Shown: positions 25,896-52,398 of the stretch, in pieces
How positions within the stretch are numbered: position 1 is the stretch's first letter
Layout of the letters: each line of letters starts with the position of its first letter
Virus record (IMG/VR): IMGVR_UViG_3300045988_076196
Coordinates: 1-64,000 of that record
Reading direction: 5' to 3' (one strand)
From: a virus
Length of the DNA: 64,000 nucleotides
Translations under genes and position numbers: made by a program
Notes under the pieces: generated by a model
What the model saw: only the letters and a program-made list of their open reading frames with translations
The model's database searches: none
Told to the model about the DNA's origin: nothing

Positions 25896-25980
25896 TGGTC
25901 TGCGTGGTCGGACTCCAACCGACAAGGCTTACGCCGCCGCATTTTGAGTGCGGTATGTTTAGCAATTTCATCACACGCAG
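25896..25980 (-). tRNA. tRNA-Leu(CAA), class II, with a swapped C19:G56 elbow pair
   Basis: perfect acceptor CUGCGUG/CACGCAG, A73, encoded CCA; anticodon arm CCGCA-CUCAAAA-UGCGG; long variable arm GGC-GUAA-GCC; T loop UUGGAGU. Confidence 0.75.
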
Positions 25981-27381: not shown

Positions 27382-27474
27382 TGGTACTGGCGCTCGGACT
27401 CGAACCGAGATTTTGCGGCAATCGACCACTAAACTGTGTATAGGACAGCTGGCTTACCATTAACCGACACCAGC
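27382..27474 (-). tRNA. class II tRNA with the non-canonical anticodon loop CCUAUAC
   Basis: acceptor GCUGGUG/CGCCAGU (2 G.U pairs), A73, encoded CCA; D arm GGUU-AAUGGUA-AGCC; T arm CUCGG-UUCGAGU-CCGAG; about 23-nt variable arm; C at position 33. Confidence 0.6.
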
Positions 27475-28722: not shown

Positions 28723-28953
28723 CTATCGTTTCTTTCTTTTCAATTTGCGGCGTTCGGCTCGATTTGGTGGATATGAAACGCCATTCGGACACAGATAATC
28801 CTTCAACGCTAAAGTGAAATCATAAAAGGATGTATCATATGATAAATTTAATTTGTCACACCATTTGTTCCACCATTCATCGAATCCTATAGTCCATGTA
28901 GCTATTTCGTCATTGCCGAACGATTCCAAATATTCAAAAATTCTATCATTCAT
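28723..28953 (-). CDS. hypothetical protein (76 aa)
   Basis: operon strand. Confidence 0.55.
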   Translation of the reverse strand: MNDRIFEYLESFGNDEIATWTIGFDEWWNKWCDKLNLSYDTSFYDFTLALKDYLCPNGVSYPPNRAERRKLKRKKR

Positions 28954-29122
28954 TTAGCGCCTCATCCAATCCAATAAAATATGGACAATCTTTTGTATCT
29001 TTACAAACGTGCTTATCTTCACCGACTTGGCATACCCAACTATGAAATTCTATATCCCCTTCAAGCCCACAGTTGCGACATTCATGAGAATATTCGGGCA
29101 TTTTATCTACTATAATTTTCAT
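28946..29122 (-). CDS. Cys-rich protein (58 aa, below ORF-track cutoff)
   Basis: ATGA overlap with the stop of 29119..29436; CRNCG...C..G...HVC...C. Confidence 0.5.
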   Translation of the reverse strand: MKIIVDKMPEYSHECRNCGLEGDIEFHSWVCQVGEDKHVCKDTKDCPYFIGLDEALNE

Positions 29123-29436
29123 CTGTATTTCTTTCCTTCTTCAATCAGTTTGGAAATTTCATCCGCACATCTTAACACACGTTGTTTCCACATAAACTCA
29201 TCCATATCCTGCTTTCTAAAAAAGTCGTATTTGCCAATAGAATCGAACAATAACATAATATCCTGTTCGTCAATATCCAAACATATTGATCTATTAAATC
29301 CGTCAAATTCAATTCCGATTCGATATGTCTTATCAATCATCGCATCAGTTGGATACATACAATATGTAATTCTTCCAGTTCGATTGTTTAACTTAACATA
29401 ATCTCCAGCATTAAATTGATATTTATTTGTATTCAT
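29119..29436 (-). CDS. hypothetical protein (105 aa)
   Basis: GGAAAGGA RBS. Confidence 0.6.
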   Translation of the reverse strand: MNTNKYQFNAGDYVKLNNRTGRITYCMYPTDAMIDKTYRIGIEFDGFNRSICLDIDEQDIMLLFDSIGKYDFFRKQDMDEFMWKQRVLRCADEISKLIEEGKKYR

Positions 29437-47341: not shown

Positions 47342-47897
47342 ACATAATAAGCTGAATCAGGAATTTTATGTTTATGCTGGTGGATTGCTCAATGTATCGC
47401 CCCAGACCGCCAAGAAATACTGGATGGGGTTTGTTGATACTATTATTCATATTCTTCATTTTGATGGCAAGTGTCAAATGCCAAGCATAGGCACATTTAC
47501 GTTAGAAGAATTGCCTGAGCGCAGAGTGATGGCTAAGAATGAGCAGGGTGAACTTGTTGAGCAAATCAACCCTGCTTGGTTTAAGATATTATACAAATAC
47601 AATGAGGATTTTCTTAACAATGTCAATGGGCGTGGCGTTACAAAGAAATATCGTAGGCGCGTCCGTGAACGTAAATTAACACCAAACGATCTCAAGCTAA
47701 TTACTCAAGCAGAAGCAGAACGAACAGCAAAGCGCACGTTGAAACAGATGCAAGATGACCGCATTGAGCAAGCAAGGCAACAGAGCTATGATGATTTTAT
47801 CAATGTGATCAACAAGAAAAAAGAAGACTATGAACGGAAAAAGAAGGAAAAGGAACAGAAATTGAATGAATCTACAGAAGATACGACAAGCGACTGA
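47334..47897 (+). CDS. DNABII-like protein with a charged C-terminal extension
   Basis: HU-like core ...MPSIGTFTLEELPERR...; K/E/R-rich tail. Confidence 0.5.
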   Translation: MAEHNKLNQEFYVYAGGLLNVSPQTAKKYWMGFVDTIIHILHFDGKCQMPSIGTFTLEELPERRVMAKNEQGELVEQINPAWFKILYKYNEDFLNNVNGRGVTKKYRRRVRERKLTPNDLKLITQAEAERTAKRTLKQMQDDRIEQARQQSYDDFINVINKKKEDYERKKKEKEQKLNESTEDTTSD

Positions 47898-49065
47898 GCT
47901 GCTAGATAGCAAGTTGATTGACTTGCAAGAATGGACGGCTCGTTGTCTTGGTGAAGATTATAGGGGTGTCTGGTCAGAGGAATATTTACGTCGATGTGCT
48001 GTGTTTGTAAGAAATATGCTCAATAGTGCAGACGATTGTGAATCAGACGAAAAAGACACCAATATTCTATCACAACTCAGAGAGGCTAAGCAGGAACTAG
48101 AGAAATCACGTCTTAAACTGCGCACAGAAAATCTTGAATATGCGGCAAATATGCGCGAGGTGGCACGACATGATATGCTTAATGAAGAAATTGTCGCAGC
48201 TATCAATCGGCTTGAACCAATCAAGTTTAGTCGTAAATTCGAGCCAGACCCAATTAAAGAGCAAATTGGTGTGTTGTGTATTGGCGACGAACATTATGGC
48301 ACAATGATTGATATGGATTCATTATTTGGTGAAAAGGTTAATGTGTATAATCCTGACGTATTCAAGGCGCGAATGGAAAAGCTGATGAATAATATCGAGG
48401 ATGACGCATATTCCGTATCAGCATTCAGCCGTTTGGTTGTGTTTGATATGGGGGATTCCATTCAGGGCGCACTTAGATTATCAGACCTTATGAAGCTCAA
48501 AGCTGGTATTGTAGATAGTGCTATGCAGTATGCCGAATATATCAGTCAATGGCTAGTTGAATTGAGTGAACGTCTACAAGTGCCGATTGAATATATCGCA
48601 GTTGGTGGTAATCATAGCGAATTGAGACTACTCAATGGCAAGAAGGGCGATTTCCAAGAAGATAACATTGCTAAGATCATTACACAGATTGTGCAGTTGC
48701 GACTTAAGGACAATCCAAACATTGAGGTTGCACCATATGCTGAATGTGGGTTTAAGTCAATTCAAGGTGTGAATATCCTAGCATATCATGGTGACGATAC
48801 CAAAGATGTAACTAGAGAAATCGCGTTCTTTGAGGATTATCATCAGATTGATATTGACATTCTACTACTTGGACATTTCCATCATCTTGAGCAACAGTCA
48901 GTTGGTATTGGTTTGAATACTGAAAAAGAGGTCATTAAATGTCCGTCCATTGTTGGTATTGATGATTATAGCAAGAAATGCCGCAAGTTGTCAAGAGCTG
49001 GTGCATTGCTCATGCTGTTTGAAGATGGGCAAAAGACGTGGACTAAGAAATATATTTTGAATTGA
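47866..49065 (+). CDS. calcineurin-like metallophosphoesterase
   Basis: GDEHYG, GDSIQG, GGNHSE and GHFHH motifs. Confidence 0.75.
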   Translation: MNLQKIRQATELLDSKLIDLQEWTARCLGEDYRGVWSEEYLRRCAVFVRNMLNSADDCESDEKDTNILSQLREAKQELEKSRLKLRTENLEYAANMREVARHDMLNEEIVAAINRLEPIKFSRKFEPDPIKEQIGVLCIGDEHYGTMIDMDSLFGEKVNVYNPDVFKARMEKLMNNIEDDAYSVSAFSRLVVFDMGDSIQGALRLSDLMKLKAGIVDSAMQYAEYISQWLVELSERLQVPIEYIAVGGNHSELRLLNGKKGDFQEDNIAKIITQIVQLRLKDNPNIEVAPYAECGFKSIQGVNILAYHGDDTKDVTREIAFFEDYHQIDIDILLLGHFHHLEQQSVGIGLNTEKEVIKCPSIVGIDDYSKKCRKLSRAGALLMLFEDGQKTWTKKYILN

Positions 49066-49562
49066 TTCATTCTCTGCTAGGTGATAGCTAGTTTAGCTGT
49101 GTTAATCATGCTTGTGGGGCGATTGACCTATCTAGTAGAGTTGAATATATCTCATGTACCATGCGTACAAGGAGTTTTCAGAGCCGTGTATGGCGGCCCT
49201 TGTAAGACAAAAAAACATAACAGAGGGTGGCGCTAGATGCCCGATGGCGCTTGATAAATGGGGTTTTAATAGTTGTATCTAGGTATATACTGTAACTGCC
49301 TGTCGCTATGCCCATTGGCGGCTATGAATATCCGAAAGGAGGTCACTATTCTCTTGAATTATCCACTGGTTTATCCGAAGCATAATTAAAGAAAGGATGG
49401 TGGTCAGAGCCAATCGGCTCATATCTACAATAAGCCCAACTCAATGGGAACTGTTGTTTAACTGAATATTGAACCTTGACAAATACGAAGCAGCTGAGAG
49501 CAATCTTGGCTGCTTTGTCATATTTATAGGAAAATAAACGGAAAGGAAGGAAGTAGCAAAAT
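49066..49562 (+). other. 497-nt ORF-free, GC-richer structured spacer upstream of the terminase genes (cos/pac or ncRNA candidate)
   Basis: no ORF with an RBS; repeated ATGCCC-NN-TGGCG; hairpin AAGCAGC/GCTGCTT near its 3' end. Confidence 0.4.
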
Positions 49563-50387
49563 ATGTTTTGCCCATATTGCGGCAAGGAAAAGCAAGATAG
49601 CCAATTCTATAAAAGCCCAATTAAAACGGGCGAATATATTAAACCATGCAAGTCATGTGTAACTGAGCTATACAAACAAGCACTTGAAGCCACTAAAGAC
49701 CAAGGCGCGGCATTATGGTCAACTTGTATGCAGACTGGTATTCCTATGCGACGGGCTGAATATACCGCTTGTCTTGATACACTAGAAAAGGCGGCTAAAG
49801 GCAAAAAGCCTAGTCTATTTATGTTGTATCATACATACTTATCAACATCACCGGATAAATTGACTGGTGTATGGGATAGCGATATGGAGCTGTCTAATTT
49901 CAAGGATTTGGGCGATGTGGCTAAGAGCGAAACGGATGAAGTTGCATTAAAGGCAAGATGGAATCGTCAGTGGGGCGTTGATTATGAAGAATGGGAATAT
50001 CAGTGGCTTGATGACATATTTGATAGATATACGGAAGAAATTCTTGATATGGACACAGCTAAAGAGATGACATATAGGAATCTGTGTCAAGCCAATCTGC
50101 GTAAATTCAAAGACCCAACAGATAAAGACGCTGGGGATGAAATTCTTAAATTGATGAAGGTACTAAAACTAGACCAGTTTAAGGAAAATAAGCAGAGCGA
50201 TACAGAAAAATTCATTGAGCGCATGGCTTGGAATATTGAAAATACAAAACCGTGTGAATGTGAGGATTTGAATAAATATAAGGATTTTAGTGGATTTGAG
50301 CTGACTTGGAATCATATTATGAGAAGTTTGAAAAATCTATGCGCCGGATCAAAAGACTATCCAGACATCCCTGTTGATGAGCGATGA
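49563..50387 (+). CDS. putative terminase small subunit (by position)
   Basis: 274 aa with an N-terminal CPYC...C.SC zinc ribbon; immediately upstream of terL. Confidence 0.4.
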   Translation: MFCPYCGKEKQDSQFYKSPIKTGEYIKPCKSCVTELYKQALEATKDQGAALWSTCMQTGIPMRRAEYTACLDTLEKAAKGKKPSLFMLYHTYLSTSPDKLTGVWDSDMELSNFKDLGDVAKSETDEVALKARWNRQWGVDYEEWEYQWLDDIFDRYTEEILDMDTAKEMTYRNLCQANLRKFKDPTDKDAGDEILKLMKVLKLDQFKENKQSDTEKFIERMAWNIENTKPCECEDLNKYKDFSGFELTWNHIMRSLKNLCAGSKDYPDIPVDER

Positions 50388-50403
50388 TTGGTGGTGATAT
50401 GAA

Positions 50404-52248
50404 ATGAAGAGTCAAATGGGAGGACTTCGTAGGAAGTTTATGTCCAACCACTTAATCACGACCGAGGCATGGTCTGGTAAAAGCAAATCGGAAGAGAAAG
50501 AGCAAAACGCAATAGAGTGGCTGACTCTTTTTTAGTTCCGTAGGAATTGGCACATATATGTAGATATGGTGCTTGGTATTAAGCTAAGGCCATTCCAGAT
50601 GGTTATGATATATTTAATGGGTATATCTCCATTCTTTTATGCAATCTGTTCTAGAGGTTTGTCAAAATCATTTATGGCTGGACTTGGAGCAATATGTAAG
50701 ATGAATCTATATCCGTATAGCGAGATTGTTATTACATCGTCTACTGTTCAACAGGCTAATAAATTAGCTGATAAAAAGATACGCGATGAAATAATTAAGA
50801 AGCTCTCAAGTTATTTGTTATACATGTACGAGCATGAGTATATAGTTATAACAAAGCCGGATGATGGTACAAAGATAGAAAATAAGTTAAATGGCTCAAC
50901 TATTGTTGTATTGCCGTGTACTGAGGCAAGCCGTGGTGAACGTGCAACACTGCTTATTTATGAAGAGGTGCGTTTGCTTAAAAAGACAATTCTTGATGCG
51001 GTCTTTGAAAAGATGCCACACCCAAGACAGGCCAAATATATGGATAATCCTGTTTATGGGAATAATAAACGATGGATTGAAGAATGCCAGCGTATCTACA
51101 TTACGTCCGCAAGATATAAATATGAATGGTTTTGGCGTTCTTTTAAGAATGTGTTCACTCAGCATTTTATAGACAAGCGCGTCAATCATAATGTTTTTGC
51201 TGGTGATATATTTATGGCAATAGATAATCGCTTAAAGACGTGGGCTGATTATCGCAAAGACAAGGCGGAGTCTGAGATGGATTGGAAAATGGAAGACCTC
51301 AACCAGATGATAGGCGAGGCTGAGGATGCGTTTTTCACATACGAGCAATTTAAGACAGCGCAAATTTTACAGCATTGTTTTAGACCTCTTACATACCTTG
51401 ATTTCTTCTCTGGTGAACAGGTTGATTTTCCAGAGAAAAAGGAAGATGAAGTGCGACTCGTTGTGGTTGACTACGCATTTTCCAACACTACTGGTTGTAC
51501 AAAGAACGACAATACCATTATTACGCTCATGTCGGCGCATTGGGATAAAAAGAAAAATCGGTTTGAACGTCATATTGATTATATAGAGGGACATGATGCT
51601 TCTGACACAATAGGCGCATCTGATAGAGCGAGATACTTATGGTGGGTATATGATGCGGATTATCTATGTCCCGATGGACGCTCTGGTGGTGAAGTTCTAT
51701 TCAATCATATGACAGAGCCATTGTCTTGGCCGGAATTAGGACTTAGGTGGAATAAGCACGGATTAGGTCTTGCAGATAAATACCAGATGGTTCCACAAGC
51801 AAAATTGGATGATTATAGAAGTCGTGTCGTTGACAAAGATGCAGTTCCAGCTATTATACCCGTGATAGGCACACCAGAGTTGAACTCTACTGGTTGGTTG
51901 TCACTGCGTAAACAGCTTGAAACTAACAATATGAAATTCCTTATTTCTATGCAAGATTATCAGAATGAGCTAACAGATAGTGGTGAATATTATAAATATA
52001 CTGCTGAAGAATTAGTTAATCAGCTTGAGCCATACGGACAGACAGATATGACAATCATAGAGGCAGTTAATCTAAAGACGGTTATTAAGCAAGATAAAAT
52101 CAAACTAGAAGAACCGCGCACAGGAACTAAGGATAGAATTGTAACCATTATGTATGGAAATTATATTATTGACTTGATTGAGAACGCATGGCAACAACAG
52201 TTACAAGAAGATGAGTTTGATGTTGATTCGATTCAATTAGTATATTAG
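50404..52248 (+). CDS. terL: terminase large subunit with an in-frame TAG at 50533..50535
   Basis: LGIKLRPFQ, Walker A-like CSRGLSKS, Walker B LLIYEE. The uninterrupted ORF is 50566..52248; the RBS (GGTGGTG) precedes ATG 50404. Confidence 0.8.
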
Positions 52249-52398
52249 TATTTGCCTATGAAGCGGTAGCTATGTTGGTGTGTTGCCGTGGAGGCACTAT
52301 TAGGGTTGTGTGGAATCCAAGTTCCAACTGAGGCTTAATCAAAAAAAGTTGAAAATAAAAACACTCAAAAAATATAAAACAAGGAAAGGAGGTTGAAG

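What the first reader, a model, noticed from the sequence alone, without database searches (positions are those of the whole stretch)
50404..50568. In-frame amber codon in the 5' region of the terminase large-subunit gene
The only good RBS (GGTGGTG at 50391..50397) serves ATG 50404. That frame reads MKSQ...NAIEWLTLF-TAG-FRRNWHIYVDMVLGIKLRPFQ... and continues, without leaving the frame, into the 560-aa terL ORF.

The first ATG after the TAG (50566) has no SD. It would also cut off RRNWHIYV, which looks like the conserved (Y/F)R.NP..F segment preceding LGI.L.P.Q in many TerL proteins.

There are three possibilities:
- The TAG at 50533..50535 is read through.
- terL is made from an SD-less internal start.
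- This genome copy carries a nonsense mutation or a sequencing error.

TAG is otherwise rare as a terminator here. I saw it only at the ends of the RNAP gene, terL, the small Cys gene (39130) and 28723..28953. After the RNAP gene an in-frame TAA follows 4 codons later.
Basis: partly seen in the sequence, partly recalled or inferred. Interest (0 to 1): 0.65.

Follow-up and report, generated by a model that had tools for sequence, protein, structure and literature searches.

The report
Conserved stop-codon hop site in terminase
The stop codon inside this gut phage's essential DNA-packaging gene is real and conserved, and comparison with relatives suggests ribosomes hop over it (6 bases here) to make the normal protein, which would be the first natural case of a "stop-hop" so far seen only in synthetic constructs.

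Summary
ATG 50404 opens a 43-codon ORF that ends at TAG 50533-50535, in frame with the 560-codon terL ORF.

It is not an error, a fresh nonsense mutation or TAG reassignment. More than 45 independent metagenomic relatives carry a stop at exactly this codon boundary, in six well-supported forms:
- TTY TAG TTC (window)
- TTC TAG TTA
- TAT TAG N TAT (a +1 frame change)
- TTC TAG CAA TTC
- TTC TGA TTY
- TTC TAG TAA TTC (two tandem stops)

All 104 uninterrupted homologous proteins join the two halves with no extra residue (W-x3-[FYWL]-RRNW). The same spacing holds in about 55 uninterrupted loci and in SPbeta YonF.

The 20 codons after the stop show almost only synonymous change. In the largest clade their first 16 codons contain no start codon. 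Translation must therefore cross the gap.

The best model is a short translational bypass, or "stop-hop". Peptidyl-tRNA-Phe leaves UUU (50530), skips UAG, re-pairs at UUC (50536) and resumes at CGU (50539), giving a 612-aa TerL.

Homing endonuclease genes lie directly upstream of terL only in interrupted alleles. This recalls the T4 mobA/gene 60 cassette.

The mechanism is inferred from comparison, not shown. Plain readthrough cannot be excluded for the window alone.

The parts
50390..50396 (+). Shine-Dalgarno sequence GGTGGTG serving ATG 50404
   Evidence: Read. The same ggtggtgat motif precedes the 5' ORF in interrupted types A, B, C and E; type D has gagggtgat or gaaggtgat.
50404..50532 (+). 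5' segment of terL: 43 codons, MKSQMGGLRRKFMSNHLITTEAWSGKSKSEEKEQNAIEWLTLF
   Evidence: Homologous to the N-termini of 104 uninterrupted 598-617-aa TerL proteins and to PMBT24 TerL. Public gene callers report it as a separate 43-aa ORF in relatives.
50530..50532 (+). Proposed take-off codon TTT (Phe), the last sense codon before the stop
   Evidence: The closest relatives have TTC (L004, L005, L056), which is read by the same tRNA. It corresponds to the [FYWL] residue that directly precedes RRNW in every uninterrupted homolog.
50533..50535 (+). In-frame stop codon TAG, in the A site at take-off; the non-coding gap
   Evidence: A stop is kept at this position in every interrupted relative: TAG, TGA or TAG TAA.
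50536..50538 (+). Proposed landing codon TTC (Phe), cognate to the take-off codon
   Evidence: Take-off and landing codons match in five of six robust junction types: TTY..TTC, TAT..TAT, TTC..CAA TTC, TTC TGA TTY and TTC TAG TAA TTC. In type B (TTC..TTA) only two of three bases match.
50539..52248 (+). 3' segment of terL, from resume codon CGT (RRNWHIYVD, then the 560-codon ORF called from ATG 50566) to stop TAG 52246-52248
   Evidence: TerL by tblastn (PMBT24 47%, SPbeta YonF 28%). PHROG hits, all to families of unknown function. Between types, the 20 codons from 50539 show 8-12 synonymous against 0-3 non-synonymous codon differences.
49563..50387 (+). Upstream neighbour, a YonG-like gene of 274 aa (context). 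In the window no homing endonuclease gene lies between it and terL.
   Evidence: Relatives' equivalents carry PF27269 YonG_N. Homing endonuclease genes are inserted at this intergenic spot in types D and F and in some type B loci.

Best explanation
The TAG at 50533-50535 is a conserved recoding site inside the large terminase gene, most likely a short translational bypass ('stop-hop').

Proposed steps:
- Ribosomes start at ATG 50404 and translate 43 codons.
- They pause with peptidyl-tRNA-Phe on UUU (50530-50532) and UAG in the A site.
- The peptidyl-tRNA unpairs, the mRNA slips 6 nt, and the tRNA re-pairs with the cognate UUC (50536-50538).
- Decoding resumes at CGU (50539).

Nine nucleotides thus specify one Phe. 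The product is a 612-aa TerL whose junction (...EWLTLF|RRNWHIYVD...) matches that of uninterrupted homologs. Ribosomes that terminate instead release only a 43-aa peptide.

What is shown by comparison:
- The stop is conserved.
- Both flanks are translated in their frames.
- The extra bases vary in length (6, 7 or 9 nt) and are not needed in the protein.

What is inferred:
- The hop itself.
- Its efficiency.
- Its origin. The inserts probably arose or spread with homing endonuclease genes that sit just upstream of terL in some relatives. They would make the terL target site immune to cleavage without altering the protein, as proposed for the T4 mobA/gene 60 cassette. The window's allele would then be a copy that has lost, or never received, the endonuclease gene.

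The confidence of 0.7 is for the stop-hop mechanism. That some conserved recoding event carries translation across the stop is about 0.95.
For: 1. Conservation. A stop sits at the same codon boundary in the window clade (L004, L005, L056), about 25 loci of the 78% clade, and four further clades. The truncated TerL clusters hold 218 and 1080 member sequences.

2. The junction forms are TTY TAG TTC; TTC TAG TTA; TAT TAG (C/G/T) TAT; TTC TAG CAA TTC; TTC TGA TTY; and TTC TAG TAA TTC. One mechanism that re-pairs the P-site tRNA downstream explains the in-frame cases, the +1 case, the TGA case and the tandem-stop case.
- The tandem-stop form occurs in 5 loci, and the TerL protein it belongs to is carried by 14 contigs.
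- It differs from TAG CAA by one base, so the gap tolerates a second stop.
- The spacer base of the 7-nt form varies freely (C, G or T).

3. Invariant protein junction. All 104 uninterrupted homologous proteins, about 55 uninterrupted loci and SPbeta YonF (28% identity) keep the spacing W-x3-[FYWL]-R.N with no indel. Only a bypass restores this in every type. In an AlphaFold model of an uninterrupted homolog the junction lies inside helix 29-45 (pLDDT about 75 there).

4. Translation across the gap. The 20 codons after the stop show 8-12 synonymous against 0-3 non-synonymous codon differences between types. In type B the first 16 of them contain no start codon. The 5' ORF keeps its RBS and its conserved ends.

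5. Not reassignment or suppression. No other gene in the 64 kb is split by TAG. There is no suppressor tRNA. terL itself terminates at TAG.

6. Precedent.
- Synthetic stop-hops use matched codons flanking a stop, and 'no occurrences are known' in nature (PMC5009743).
- Candidate 10-nt bypasses exist in Streptomyces phage Hau3 terminase (PMC10732093).
- The T4 MobA element combines an HNH endonuclease, a 44-45-aa N-terminal segment and a bypass that protects against nicking (bioRxiv 10.1101/2022.08.31.505936).

7. Association with homing endonuclease genes. Such a gene lies directly upstream of terL in types D (4 of 4 loci), F (4 of 4) and B (6 of 38), against 0 of 55 uninterrupted loci. These are HNH-NUMOD3 genes related to T-even Mob-type genes, or GIY-YIG/I-TevI-like genes.
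Against: - There is no experimental evidence. No junction peptide has been seen.
- Unstimulated stop-hops in E. coli are inefficient (described as 'low-level' in the literature). No conserved stimulatory RNA structure was found: the RNAalifold consensus is -1.38 kcal/mol with no covarying pairs, and single-sequence folds disagree.
- The most abundant clade (type B) lands on UUA, which matches the Phe anticodon at only two of three positions.
- The codon match alone is weak statistically. If both positions were drawn independently from the residue frequencies seen before RRNW (F 66%, Y 15%, W 13%, L 5%), a match is expected about 48% of the time. Five or more matches in six then has P of about 0.09.
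- Matched codons could be a by-product of how the inserts arose (3-nt duplications) rather than a requirement.
- For the window's own in-frame form, readthrough with a tolerated 2-aa insertion gives the same DNA picture.
- The types are not phylogenetically independent. Types A to E share a similar 5' segment.
Confidence: 0.7

Rival explanations
1. Programmed or leaky stop-codon readthrough. A near-cognate or suppressor tRNA inserts an amino acid at UAG, and the 614-aa product, with two extra residues (X-Phe), is functional. Relatives with a frame change would use +1 frameshifting at the same stop.
For: - In the window the stop is in frame, so readthrough is formally sufficient.
- A conserved stop is also typical of programmed readthrough.
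- Type B's codon after the stop (TTA) does not match the take-off codon.
- The 64-kb window covers only part of a genome of about 90 kb, so a suppressor tRNA could lie outside it.
Against: - It needs different mechanisms at one site: UAG readthrough, UGA readthrough (type E), double readthrough of TAG TAA (type F) and +1 frameshifting (type C), where tRNA-Tyr cannot re-pair in the +1 frame (UAU to AUU).
- It would insert 2, 2 or 3 residues of varying identity (X-F, X-L, S/R-Y, X-Q-F). The segment shows no indel in 104 proteins or in SPbeta YonF.
- No suppressor tRNA is in the window or in the flanks of 51 relatives.
Confidence: 0.17
2. Split gene. The 43-aa peptide and a shorter TerL are made separately. 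TerL would initiate internally at ATG 50566, at ATG 50599 (the MVMIY start that public gene callers use), or by reinitiation after termination.
For: Public gene callers annotate it this way, as 549-, 548-, 543- and 560-aa proteins plus 42-43-aa ORFs.
Against: - The codons between the stop and any start codon (RRNWHIYVD...) are conserved at the protein level with many synonymous changes.
- ATG 50566 has no SD and is TTA in type B.
- The first 16 codons after the stop in type B hold no ATG, GTG or TTG.
- In every uninterrupted homolog the two parts form one polypeptide, and the junction lies within a predicted helix.
Confidence: 0.04
3. Defect or artefact: a sequencing or assembly error, a recent nonsense mutation in this genome copy, or a decaying (pseudogenised) terL.
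For: A single internal stop in an essential gene is what an error or a dead copy looks like when one genome is viewed alone.
Against: - The same stop occurs in independent assemblies from many samples and in six forms with synonymous divergence around it.
- The clusters hold hundreds to more than a thousand member sequences.
- Contigs of about 90-100 kb look like complete phage genomes.
Confidence: 0.01
4. Genome-wide reassignment of TAG to a sense codon (code 15-like), as in some crAss-like and Lak gut phages.
For: Some public gene calls on short contigs translate the site as Q, or as QQ (P0002, P0155, P0175, P0138, P0145).
Against: - Those calls are artefacts of the caller's alternative code. 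The DNA has TAG, or TAG TAA.
- Only this one gene in the 64 kb is split by TAG.
- TAG ends terL and other ORFs.
- There is no tRNA-CUA.
- Relatives use TGA or change frame at the site.
Confidence: 0.01

Closest known systems
Synthetic 'stop-hops' in E. coli (Weiss, Dunn, Atkins & Gesteland 1987, as described in PMC5009743 and bioRxiv 10.1101/2024.12.09.627546)
   Same: Matched codons flank a stop codon, and 9 nt specify one amino acid. No elaborate stimulatory signal is needed. The product is two residues shorter than a readthrough product. The window's TTT TAG TTC has exactly this form.
   Different: Those were engineered constructs with low efficiency. The 2016 review states that no natural occurrences are known. 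Here the site is natural, lies in an essential gene and is conserved across diverged phages, with hops of 6, 7 and 9 nt.
Phage T4 gene 60 bypass with the MobA homing endonuclease cassette
   Same: - A stop (UAG) follows the take-off codon directly, and take-off and landing codons match.
- The gap follows a short 5' ORF: codon 46 in gene 60, codon 43 here.
- An HNH homing endonuclease gene lies directly upstream in types D and F.
- The insert sits in a highly conserved region of an essential phage gene and may protect the site from cleavage.
   Different: - The gene 60 gap is 50 nt. It depends on a nascent-peptide signal, a take-off stem-loop and an internal SD, and it is highly efficient.
- Here the skipped stretch (the stop and any bases before the landing codon) is 3-6 nt, so the shift is 6, 7 or 9 nt, and no conserved RNA structure was found.
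- The 5' ORF is the native TerL N-terminus, not an element-derived extension.
- The window's own allele has no endonuclease gene.
- The host gene (terL) and the phage lineage (SPbeta-like gut phages of Firmicutes) are different.
Candidate bypassing in Streptomyces phage Hau3 terminase (Smith et al. 2013; Antonov et al. 2023, PMC10732093)
   Same: Short non-coding blocks interrupt a large terminase gene at junctions that are highly conserved and free of indels in homologs. The argument against frameshifting or readthrough is the same: extra residues are not tolerated.
   Different: In Hau3 the inserts are 10 nt and begin with the rare sense codon UUA, a 'hungry' codon tied to bldA tRNA. They change the frame and occur in only 3 of 100 genes. 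Here the A-site codon is a stop, the hop is 6-9 nt, and the site is widespread in human-gut phages.
prfB-type +1 programmed frameshifting at a stop codon
   Same: A stop codon in the A site gives the P-site tRNA time to re-pair downstream. The single-contig type G relative (TTT_T AGA) would work exactly this way.
   Different: The window shows no net frame change, and no overlapping re-pairing would restore the frame. No SD stimulator is conserved upstream.
TAG-recoded gut phages (alternative genetic code 15)
   Same: An in-frame TAG lies in a late (packaging) gene of a human-gut phage, and automated callers assign Q to it.
   Different: This is one site in one gene. There is no suppressor tRNA, TAG still terminates genes, and relatives have TGA, tandem stops or a frame change at the site.

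Membership tests
Translational bypassing / stop-hop (mechanistic class) | A stop or slow-to-decode codon lies immediately 3' of the last decoded codon (A site at take-off) | tested here: met
   TAG 50533-50535 follows TTT. A stop (TAG, TGA or TAG TAA) sits at this position in every interrupted relative.
Translational bypassing / stop-hop (mechanistic class) | The landing codon is cognate to the take-off codon, directly 5' of the resume codon | tested here: met
   In the window, TTT to TTC (the same tRNA-Phe). Met in types A, C, D, E and F. In type B only two of three bases match (TTC to TTA).
Translational bypassing / stop-hop (mechanistic class) | The gap is not represented in the protein: homologs join the flanks directly, and gap length and frame are free | tested here: met
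   All 104 uninterrupted proteins, about 55 loci and SPbeta YonF share the same spacing. Inserts are 6, 7 or 9 nt. The spacer base varies (C/G/T), and CAA versus TAA occurs within the gap.
Translational bypassing / stop-hop (mechanistic class) | A single polypeptide product lacks gap-encoded residues | not testable with these tools
   This needs mass spectrometry of TerL or of a reporter. Expected tryptic peptide: EQNAIEWLTLFR.
T4 gene 60 / MobA bypass cassette (family membership) | A roughly 50-nt coding gap with a take-off stem-loop, an internal SD and a nascent-peptide signal, inserted in a topoisomerase gene | tested here: not met
   The window's shift is only 6 nt (6-9 nt in relatives). 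No conserved structure was found. The gene is terL. It works similarly but is not a member.
T4 gene 60 / MobA bypass cassette (family membership) | An HNH homing endonuclease gene is adjacent to the interrupted gene | tested here: not met
   The window has none between the YonG-like gene and terL. It is met in relatives of types D and F, which carry HNH-NUMOD3 genes 61% identical to each other and related to Mob-type genes. GIY-YIG-type genes occur in some type B loci.
Stop-codon reassignment (code 15-like phage) | Many in-frame TAG codons across (late) genes | tested here: not met
   Among clear genes in the 64 kb, only terL is split by TAG.
Stop-codon reassignment (code 15-like phage) | A phage-encoded suppressor tRNA (anticodon CUA) | tested here: not met
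   Only tRNA-Leu(CAA) and a tRNA with anticodon UAU are in the window. No tRNA is in the flanks of 51 relatives. The rest of the genome was not seen.
Programmed stop-codon readthrough | The downstream ORF is in the same frame and a single stop is decoded as sense | tested here: inconclusive
   Met in the window (in frame, one TAG). Homologous sites in relatives change frame (type C) or have two stops (type F). The readthrough product would carry 2 residues absent from all homologs.
prfB-like +1 frameshift | A net +1 frame change, with P-site tRNA re-pairing on an overlapping codon | tested here: not met
   The window shows no frame change. A +1 slip on the T run of CTT TTT TAG would lead out of the RRNW frame (read). 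Only the single-contig type G fits this scheme.
Large terminase (TerL) of SPbeta-like phages | Sequence homology to TerL/YonF over the full length, and a neighbourhood of yonG-like gene, terL and portal gene | tested here: met
   By tblastn, 47% to PMBT24 TerL and 28% to SPbeta YonF over 93-96% of the query. The portal gene matches PHROG 2739 downstream. Relatives' neighbours carry YonG_N, YonJ_CC and YonD_N.

The most novel reading that the evidence does not exclude
This would be the first natural, evolutionarily maintained set of stop-hops. At one codon boundary of an essential phage gene, ribosomes would shift by 6, 7 or 9 nt (and possibly +1) over one or two stop codons to rebuild an invariant protein junction. 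The tiny inserts would be immunity scars or cassettes spread by HNH and GIY-YIG homing endonucleases, a miniature and signal-poor counterpart of the T4 mobA/gene 60 element. They are common in human-gut phages.
Probability: 0.55. Interest if true: 0.9.

Novelty: new variant of a known kind. Interest (0 to 1): 0.8.

Why it matters
Natural translational bypassing is known from very few systems: T4 gene 60 and its homologs, Magnusiomyces mitochondria, and a candidate in one Streptomyces phage. Short hops over a stop codon have been known only from synthetic constructs since 1987, and the 2016 review of the field states that no natural occurrence is known.

This site offers several things:
- A naturally replicated series of variants (6, 7 and 9 nt; TAG, TGA and tandem stops; Phe and Tyr codon pairs) that can be tested directly in reporters.
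- A possible second, independent link between homing endonucleases and bypass inserts.
- An abundant target for metaproteomics, because the phages are common in the human gut.
- A practical warning. Public gene calls split this terL into a 43-aa ORF and a truncated TerL, or translate short contigs with an alternative code (Q or QQ at the stops). That can create false 'recoded phage' calls and truncated terminase entries.

Tried and rejected
- Nearest relatives in cultured phages: megablast of the terL region against GenBank phages found nothing. No isolate carries the interrupted form; the nearest isolates (Enterocloster phages) are uninterrupted or contain introns.
- Pfam on the read-through TerL and on the upstream gene gave no hit at E <= 0.01.
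- An apparent sense-codon 'revertant' (P0002, Q at the TAG) proved to be a gene-caller artefact. Its DNA has TAG. The same holds for P0155, P0175, P0138 and P0145.
- Stimulatory RNA structure: single-sequence folds, downstream hairpin energies by type and an RNAalifold consensus of 17 interrupted sequences gave no conserved or covarying structure. The strong fold in the window (z = -3.3) is not shared by the other types.
- A second split gene at 28723-29400 is rejected; that region holds minus-strand genes.
- The TAT TAG TAT at terL's own terminator leads only to a 6-codon extension and is taken as chance.
- Host or prophage search: the genome-contig scan gave only 4 MAG hits and no isolate.
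- The IMG/VR pattern scan for E-W-L-T-L-[FY]-TAG added no new form and one chance hit, L026.
- IMG/VR scans with types F and G found no new close relatives.
- Suppressor tRNA search: none in the window or in the flanks of 51 loci.
- A single origin of all interrupted alleles is rejected. On the TerL-body tree they are polyphyletic. Types F and G have 5' segments that differ from those of types A to E.
- Type G (a 1-nt insert in a T run) rests on one contig and is treated as tentative.
Full report
**1. The observation**

The window reads ...GGTGGTGATATGAA ATG (50404) ... GAG TGG CTG ACT CTT TTT TAG (50533-50535) TTC CGT AGG AAT TGG CAC ATA TAT GTA GAT ATG (50566) .... The 43-codon ORF, the TAG and the 560-codon ORF share one frame.
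- ATG 50566 has no SD.
- The gene is the large terminase. By tblastn it is 47% identical to Enterocloster phage PMBT24 TerL and 28% to SPbeta YonF.
- A portal gene (PHROG 2739) follows, and a YonG-like gene precedes.
- The alignment to PMBT24 TerL starts at residue 26 of the read-through protein and crosses the TAG. The window carries two extra codons there: WLTLF*F-RRNW against WATFY-RRNW.

**2. The stop is conserved, so it is not an error**

Relatives came from IMG/VR, from a metagenome scan and from contig look-ups. They gave about 60 interrupted loci, some fetched more than once from the same contig, and about 55 uninterrupted ones. Reading the DNA at the junction gives these forms, written as last codon | stop and extra bases | codon before RRNW:

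| Type | Junction | Extra nt | Where found |
|---|---|---|---|
| A | TTT or TTC, TAG, TTC | 6 | window, L004, L005, L056 |
| B | TTC, TAG, TTA | 6 | about 25 loci; truncated TerL cluster of 1080 member sequences |
| C | TAT, TAG + C/G/T, TAT | 7 (+1 frame change) | 8 loci |
| D | TTC, TAG CAA, TTC | 9 | 4 loci |
| E | TTC, TGA, TTT or TTC | 6 | 4 loci |
| F | TTC, TAG TAA, TTC | 9 (two tandem stops) | 5 loci; its TerL protein is on 14 contigs from several samples |
| G | TTA TTT_T AGA CGA | 1 | one contig only |

Type G would be a classic +1 slip of tRNA-Phe on UUU_U with UAG in the A site. Because it rests on one contig, I treat it as tentative.

No sense-codon variant of the stop was found. 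The apparent ones (Q, or QQ, in P0002, P0155, P0175, P0138 and P0145) are translations made with an alternative code by the public gene caller. The DNA has the stops.

**3. Both flanks are translated, and the extra bases are not wanted in the protein**

- All 104 uninterrupted proteins show W-x3-[FYWL] directly followed by R[RY]NW. So do all uninterrupted loci and SPbeta YonF (WTSFY-RANP).
- In an AlphaFold model of the uninterrupted homolog P0021 (mean pLDDT 71, about 75 locally), the junction F43|R44 lies inside helix 29-45.
- Between interrupted types, the 20 codons after the landing codon differ by 8-12 synonymous and 0-3 non-synonymous codons. Types A and C, for example, differ by 10 and 0. 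Each of the two Arg positions uses five different Arg codons.
- In type B the window's ATG is TTA. The first 16 codons after the stop contain no ATG, GTG or TTG.
- The 5' ORF keeps its RBS and the conserved MKSQ.GGLRRKF and IEWLTLF ends.

Ribosomes must therefore come from ATG 50404 and continue into the RRNW frame.

**4. Mechanism**

Genome-wide TAG reassignment and a TAG suppressor do not fit.
- TAG splits no other gene in the 64 kb.
- TAG terminates terL and other ORFs.
- The window holds only tRNA-Leu(CAA) and a tRNA with anticodon UAU.
- Relatives use TGA, tandem stops or a frame change at the same site.

Readthrough combined with frameshifting would need three or four different events at one site. 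It would also add 2-3 residues of variable identity inside an otherwise indel-free helix.

One mechanism covers every form. With a stop in the A site, the peptidyl-tRNA unpairs and re-pairs with a cognate codon 6, 7 or 9 nt downstream (or 1 nt in type G), and decoding resumes at the Arg codon. This always rebuilds ...[FY]-RRNW.... Three natural variants support it:
- CAA against TAA within the gap (D against F).
- The free spacer base in type C. Under +1 frameshifting it would be read as AGC, AGG or AGU, giving Ser, Arg or Ser.
- Synonymous TTT/TTC variation at the take-off and landing codons.

For the window this means UUU (50530) to UUC (50536), resuming at CGU 50539, to give a 612-aa TerL.

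Weak points:
- Type B lands on UUA, a two-of-three match.
- The codon match alone is not statistically strong, with P about 0.09 under a residue-frequency null built.
- No conserved RNA structure was found.
- Unstimulated stop-hops are described as low-level.
- Nothing is known about efficiency. TerL is an enzyme needed in small amounts, so a low yield may be enough, but that is inference.

**5. Origin and surroundings**

- On a tree of the TerL body, the interrupted types are polyphyletic. Type C sits next to the uninterrupted L062.
- The genomes are mosaic. The window and L006 are 90-95% identical in the YonG-like gene, 61-75% over most of terL, and about 90% at its 3' end.
- Types A to E share a similar 5' segment. 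Types F and G do not.
- A homing endonuclease gene lies directly upstream of the 5' ORF, overlapping its start by 4 nt, in all D and F loci. These are HNH-NUMOD3 genes, 61% identical to each other and related to T-even Mob-type genes.
- Some type B loci carry a GIY-YIG/I-TevI-like gene there (L013), and so does the type G contig.
- No such gene sits there in any of 55 uninterrupted loci (the counts include repeated contigs and related genomes).
- terL in this group also hosts larger homing elements: a LAGLIDADG ORF in L058 and L116, and intron endonucleases in the Enterocloster phages.

This layout matches the T4 MobA element, which combines an HNH endonuclease, a 44-45-residue 5' ORF and a bypass insert that protects against nicking. 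I infer that the mini-inserts protect a conserved target site without changing the protein. The window's allele (type A) has no endonuclease gene and would be a 'hit-and-run' or co-converted copy. This step is speculative.

**6. Comparison with what is known**

The site works like the synthetic stop-hops of Weiss et al. 1987. The 2016 review says of these that in-frame stop hopping could explain certain cases of apparent natural readthrough, but 'no occurrences are known' (PMC5009743).

It shares the stop-after-take-off and matched-codon logic of T4 gene 60, and in some relatives the endonuclease neighbour. It is not a member of that family, because the gap length, the signals and the gene all differ.

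The closest case in a terminase gene is the pair of 10-nt, UUA-led inserts in Streptomyces phage Hau3 (PMC10732093). Full-text searches found no description of this site.

**7. Verdict**

A conserved recoding event is very likely (about 0.95). A stop-hop is the best mechanism (about 0.7), and readthrough is the main rival for the window alone (about 0.17). I class it as a new variant of a known kind. It is of high interest to people who study recoding and phage mobile elements, and it bears on how terL and 'recoded' phages are annotated.

Noticed in passing
window 52253-52369 (+): The intergenic region between terL and the portal gene matches the Rfam drum RNA family (RF02958) at 49.7 bits (gathering score 43), over the full length of the model. 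The portal gene more likely starts at ATG 52400, behind AGGAGG, than at the TTG 52393 listed by the ORF tool.
   Followed up: no
window 27385-27474 (-) and 25896-25980 (-): The tRNA at 27385-27474 has a long variable arm (class II shape), discriminator A73 followed by an encoded CCA, and the anticodon loop CCUAUAC (anticodon UAU with C33 in place of U33). That is unusual for an Ile tRNA, and it could be charged as Leu or Tyr. The tRNA-Leu(CAA) called by ARAGORN did not reach Rfam's tRNA gathering score. Neither can read UAG.
   Followed up: partly
L041:1940-2842, L068-L070, L132/L152-L154:377-1267 and L152:3250-4179; L013:1910-2842; L133:1-444: Homing endonuclease genes (HNH-NUMOD3, or GIY-YIG/I-TevI-like) lie directly upstream of terL only in genomes with the interrupted allele: D 4/4, F 4/4, B 6/38, uninterrupted 0/55. 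In type F a second one lies between terL and the portal gene.
   Followed up: partly
L058:287-1738; also L057, L116; L002 (Enterocloster phage CB473P3): In some relatives terL is additionally interrupted after ...GAICK by an insert of about 1.75 kb carrying a 483-aa LAGLIDADG endonuclease ORF. The cultured Enterocloster phages CB473P and CB457P have terL in three pieces with an annotated intron-associated endonuclease. terL is a hot spot for homing elements in this phage group.
   Followed up: partly
public protein entries P0002, P0155, P0175 (Q at TAG) and P0138, P0145 (QQ at TAG TAA): On short contigs the public gene caller switched to an alternative genetic code because of this single site. 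On long contigs it split terL into a 42-43-aa ORF and a truncated TerL of 536-560 aa. Both are annotation artefacts that propagate in databases.
   Followed up: yes
window 52243-52251: terL's own terminator reads TAT TAG TAT, again with matched codons around a stop. A hop there would add only 6 codons (YLPMKR) before TAG. This is probably chance.
   Followed up: partly
window 48600-52300 compared with L006: There is strong mosaicism. The YonG-like gene is 90-95% identical, the terL 5' ORF 61-65%, most of terL 63-75%, and the last roughly 300 nt of terL about 90%. This implies frequent recombination within and around terL.
   Followed up: partly
window 49066-49562: A stretch of about 500 nt between the exonuclease-like gene (47866-49065) and the YonG-like gene holds no ORF longer than 79 aa on either strand. 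A similar gap, of about 890 nt, exists in L006. Its content was not examined.
   Followed up: no
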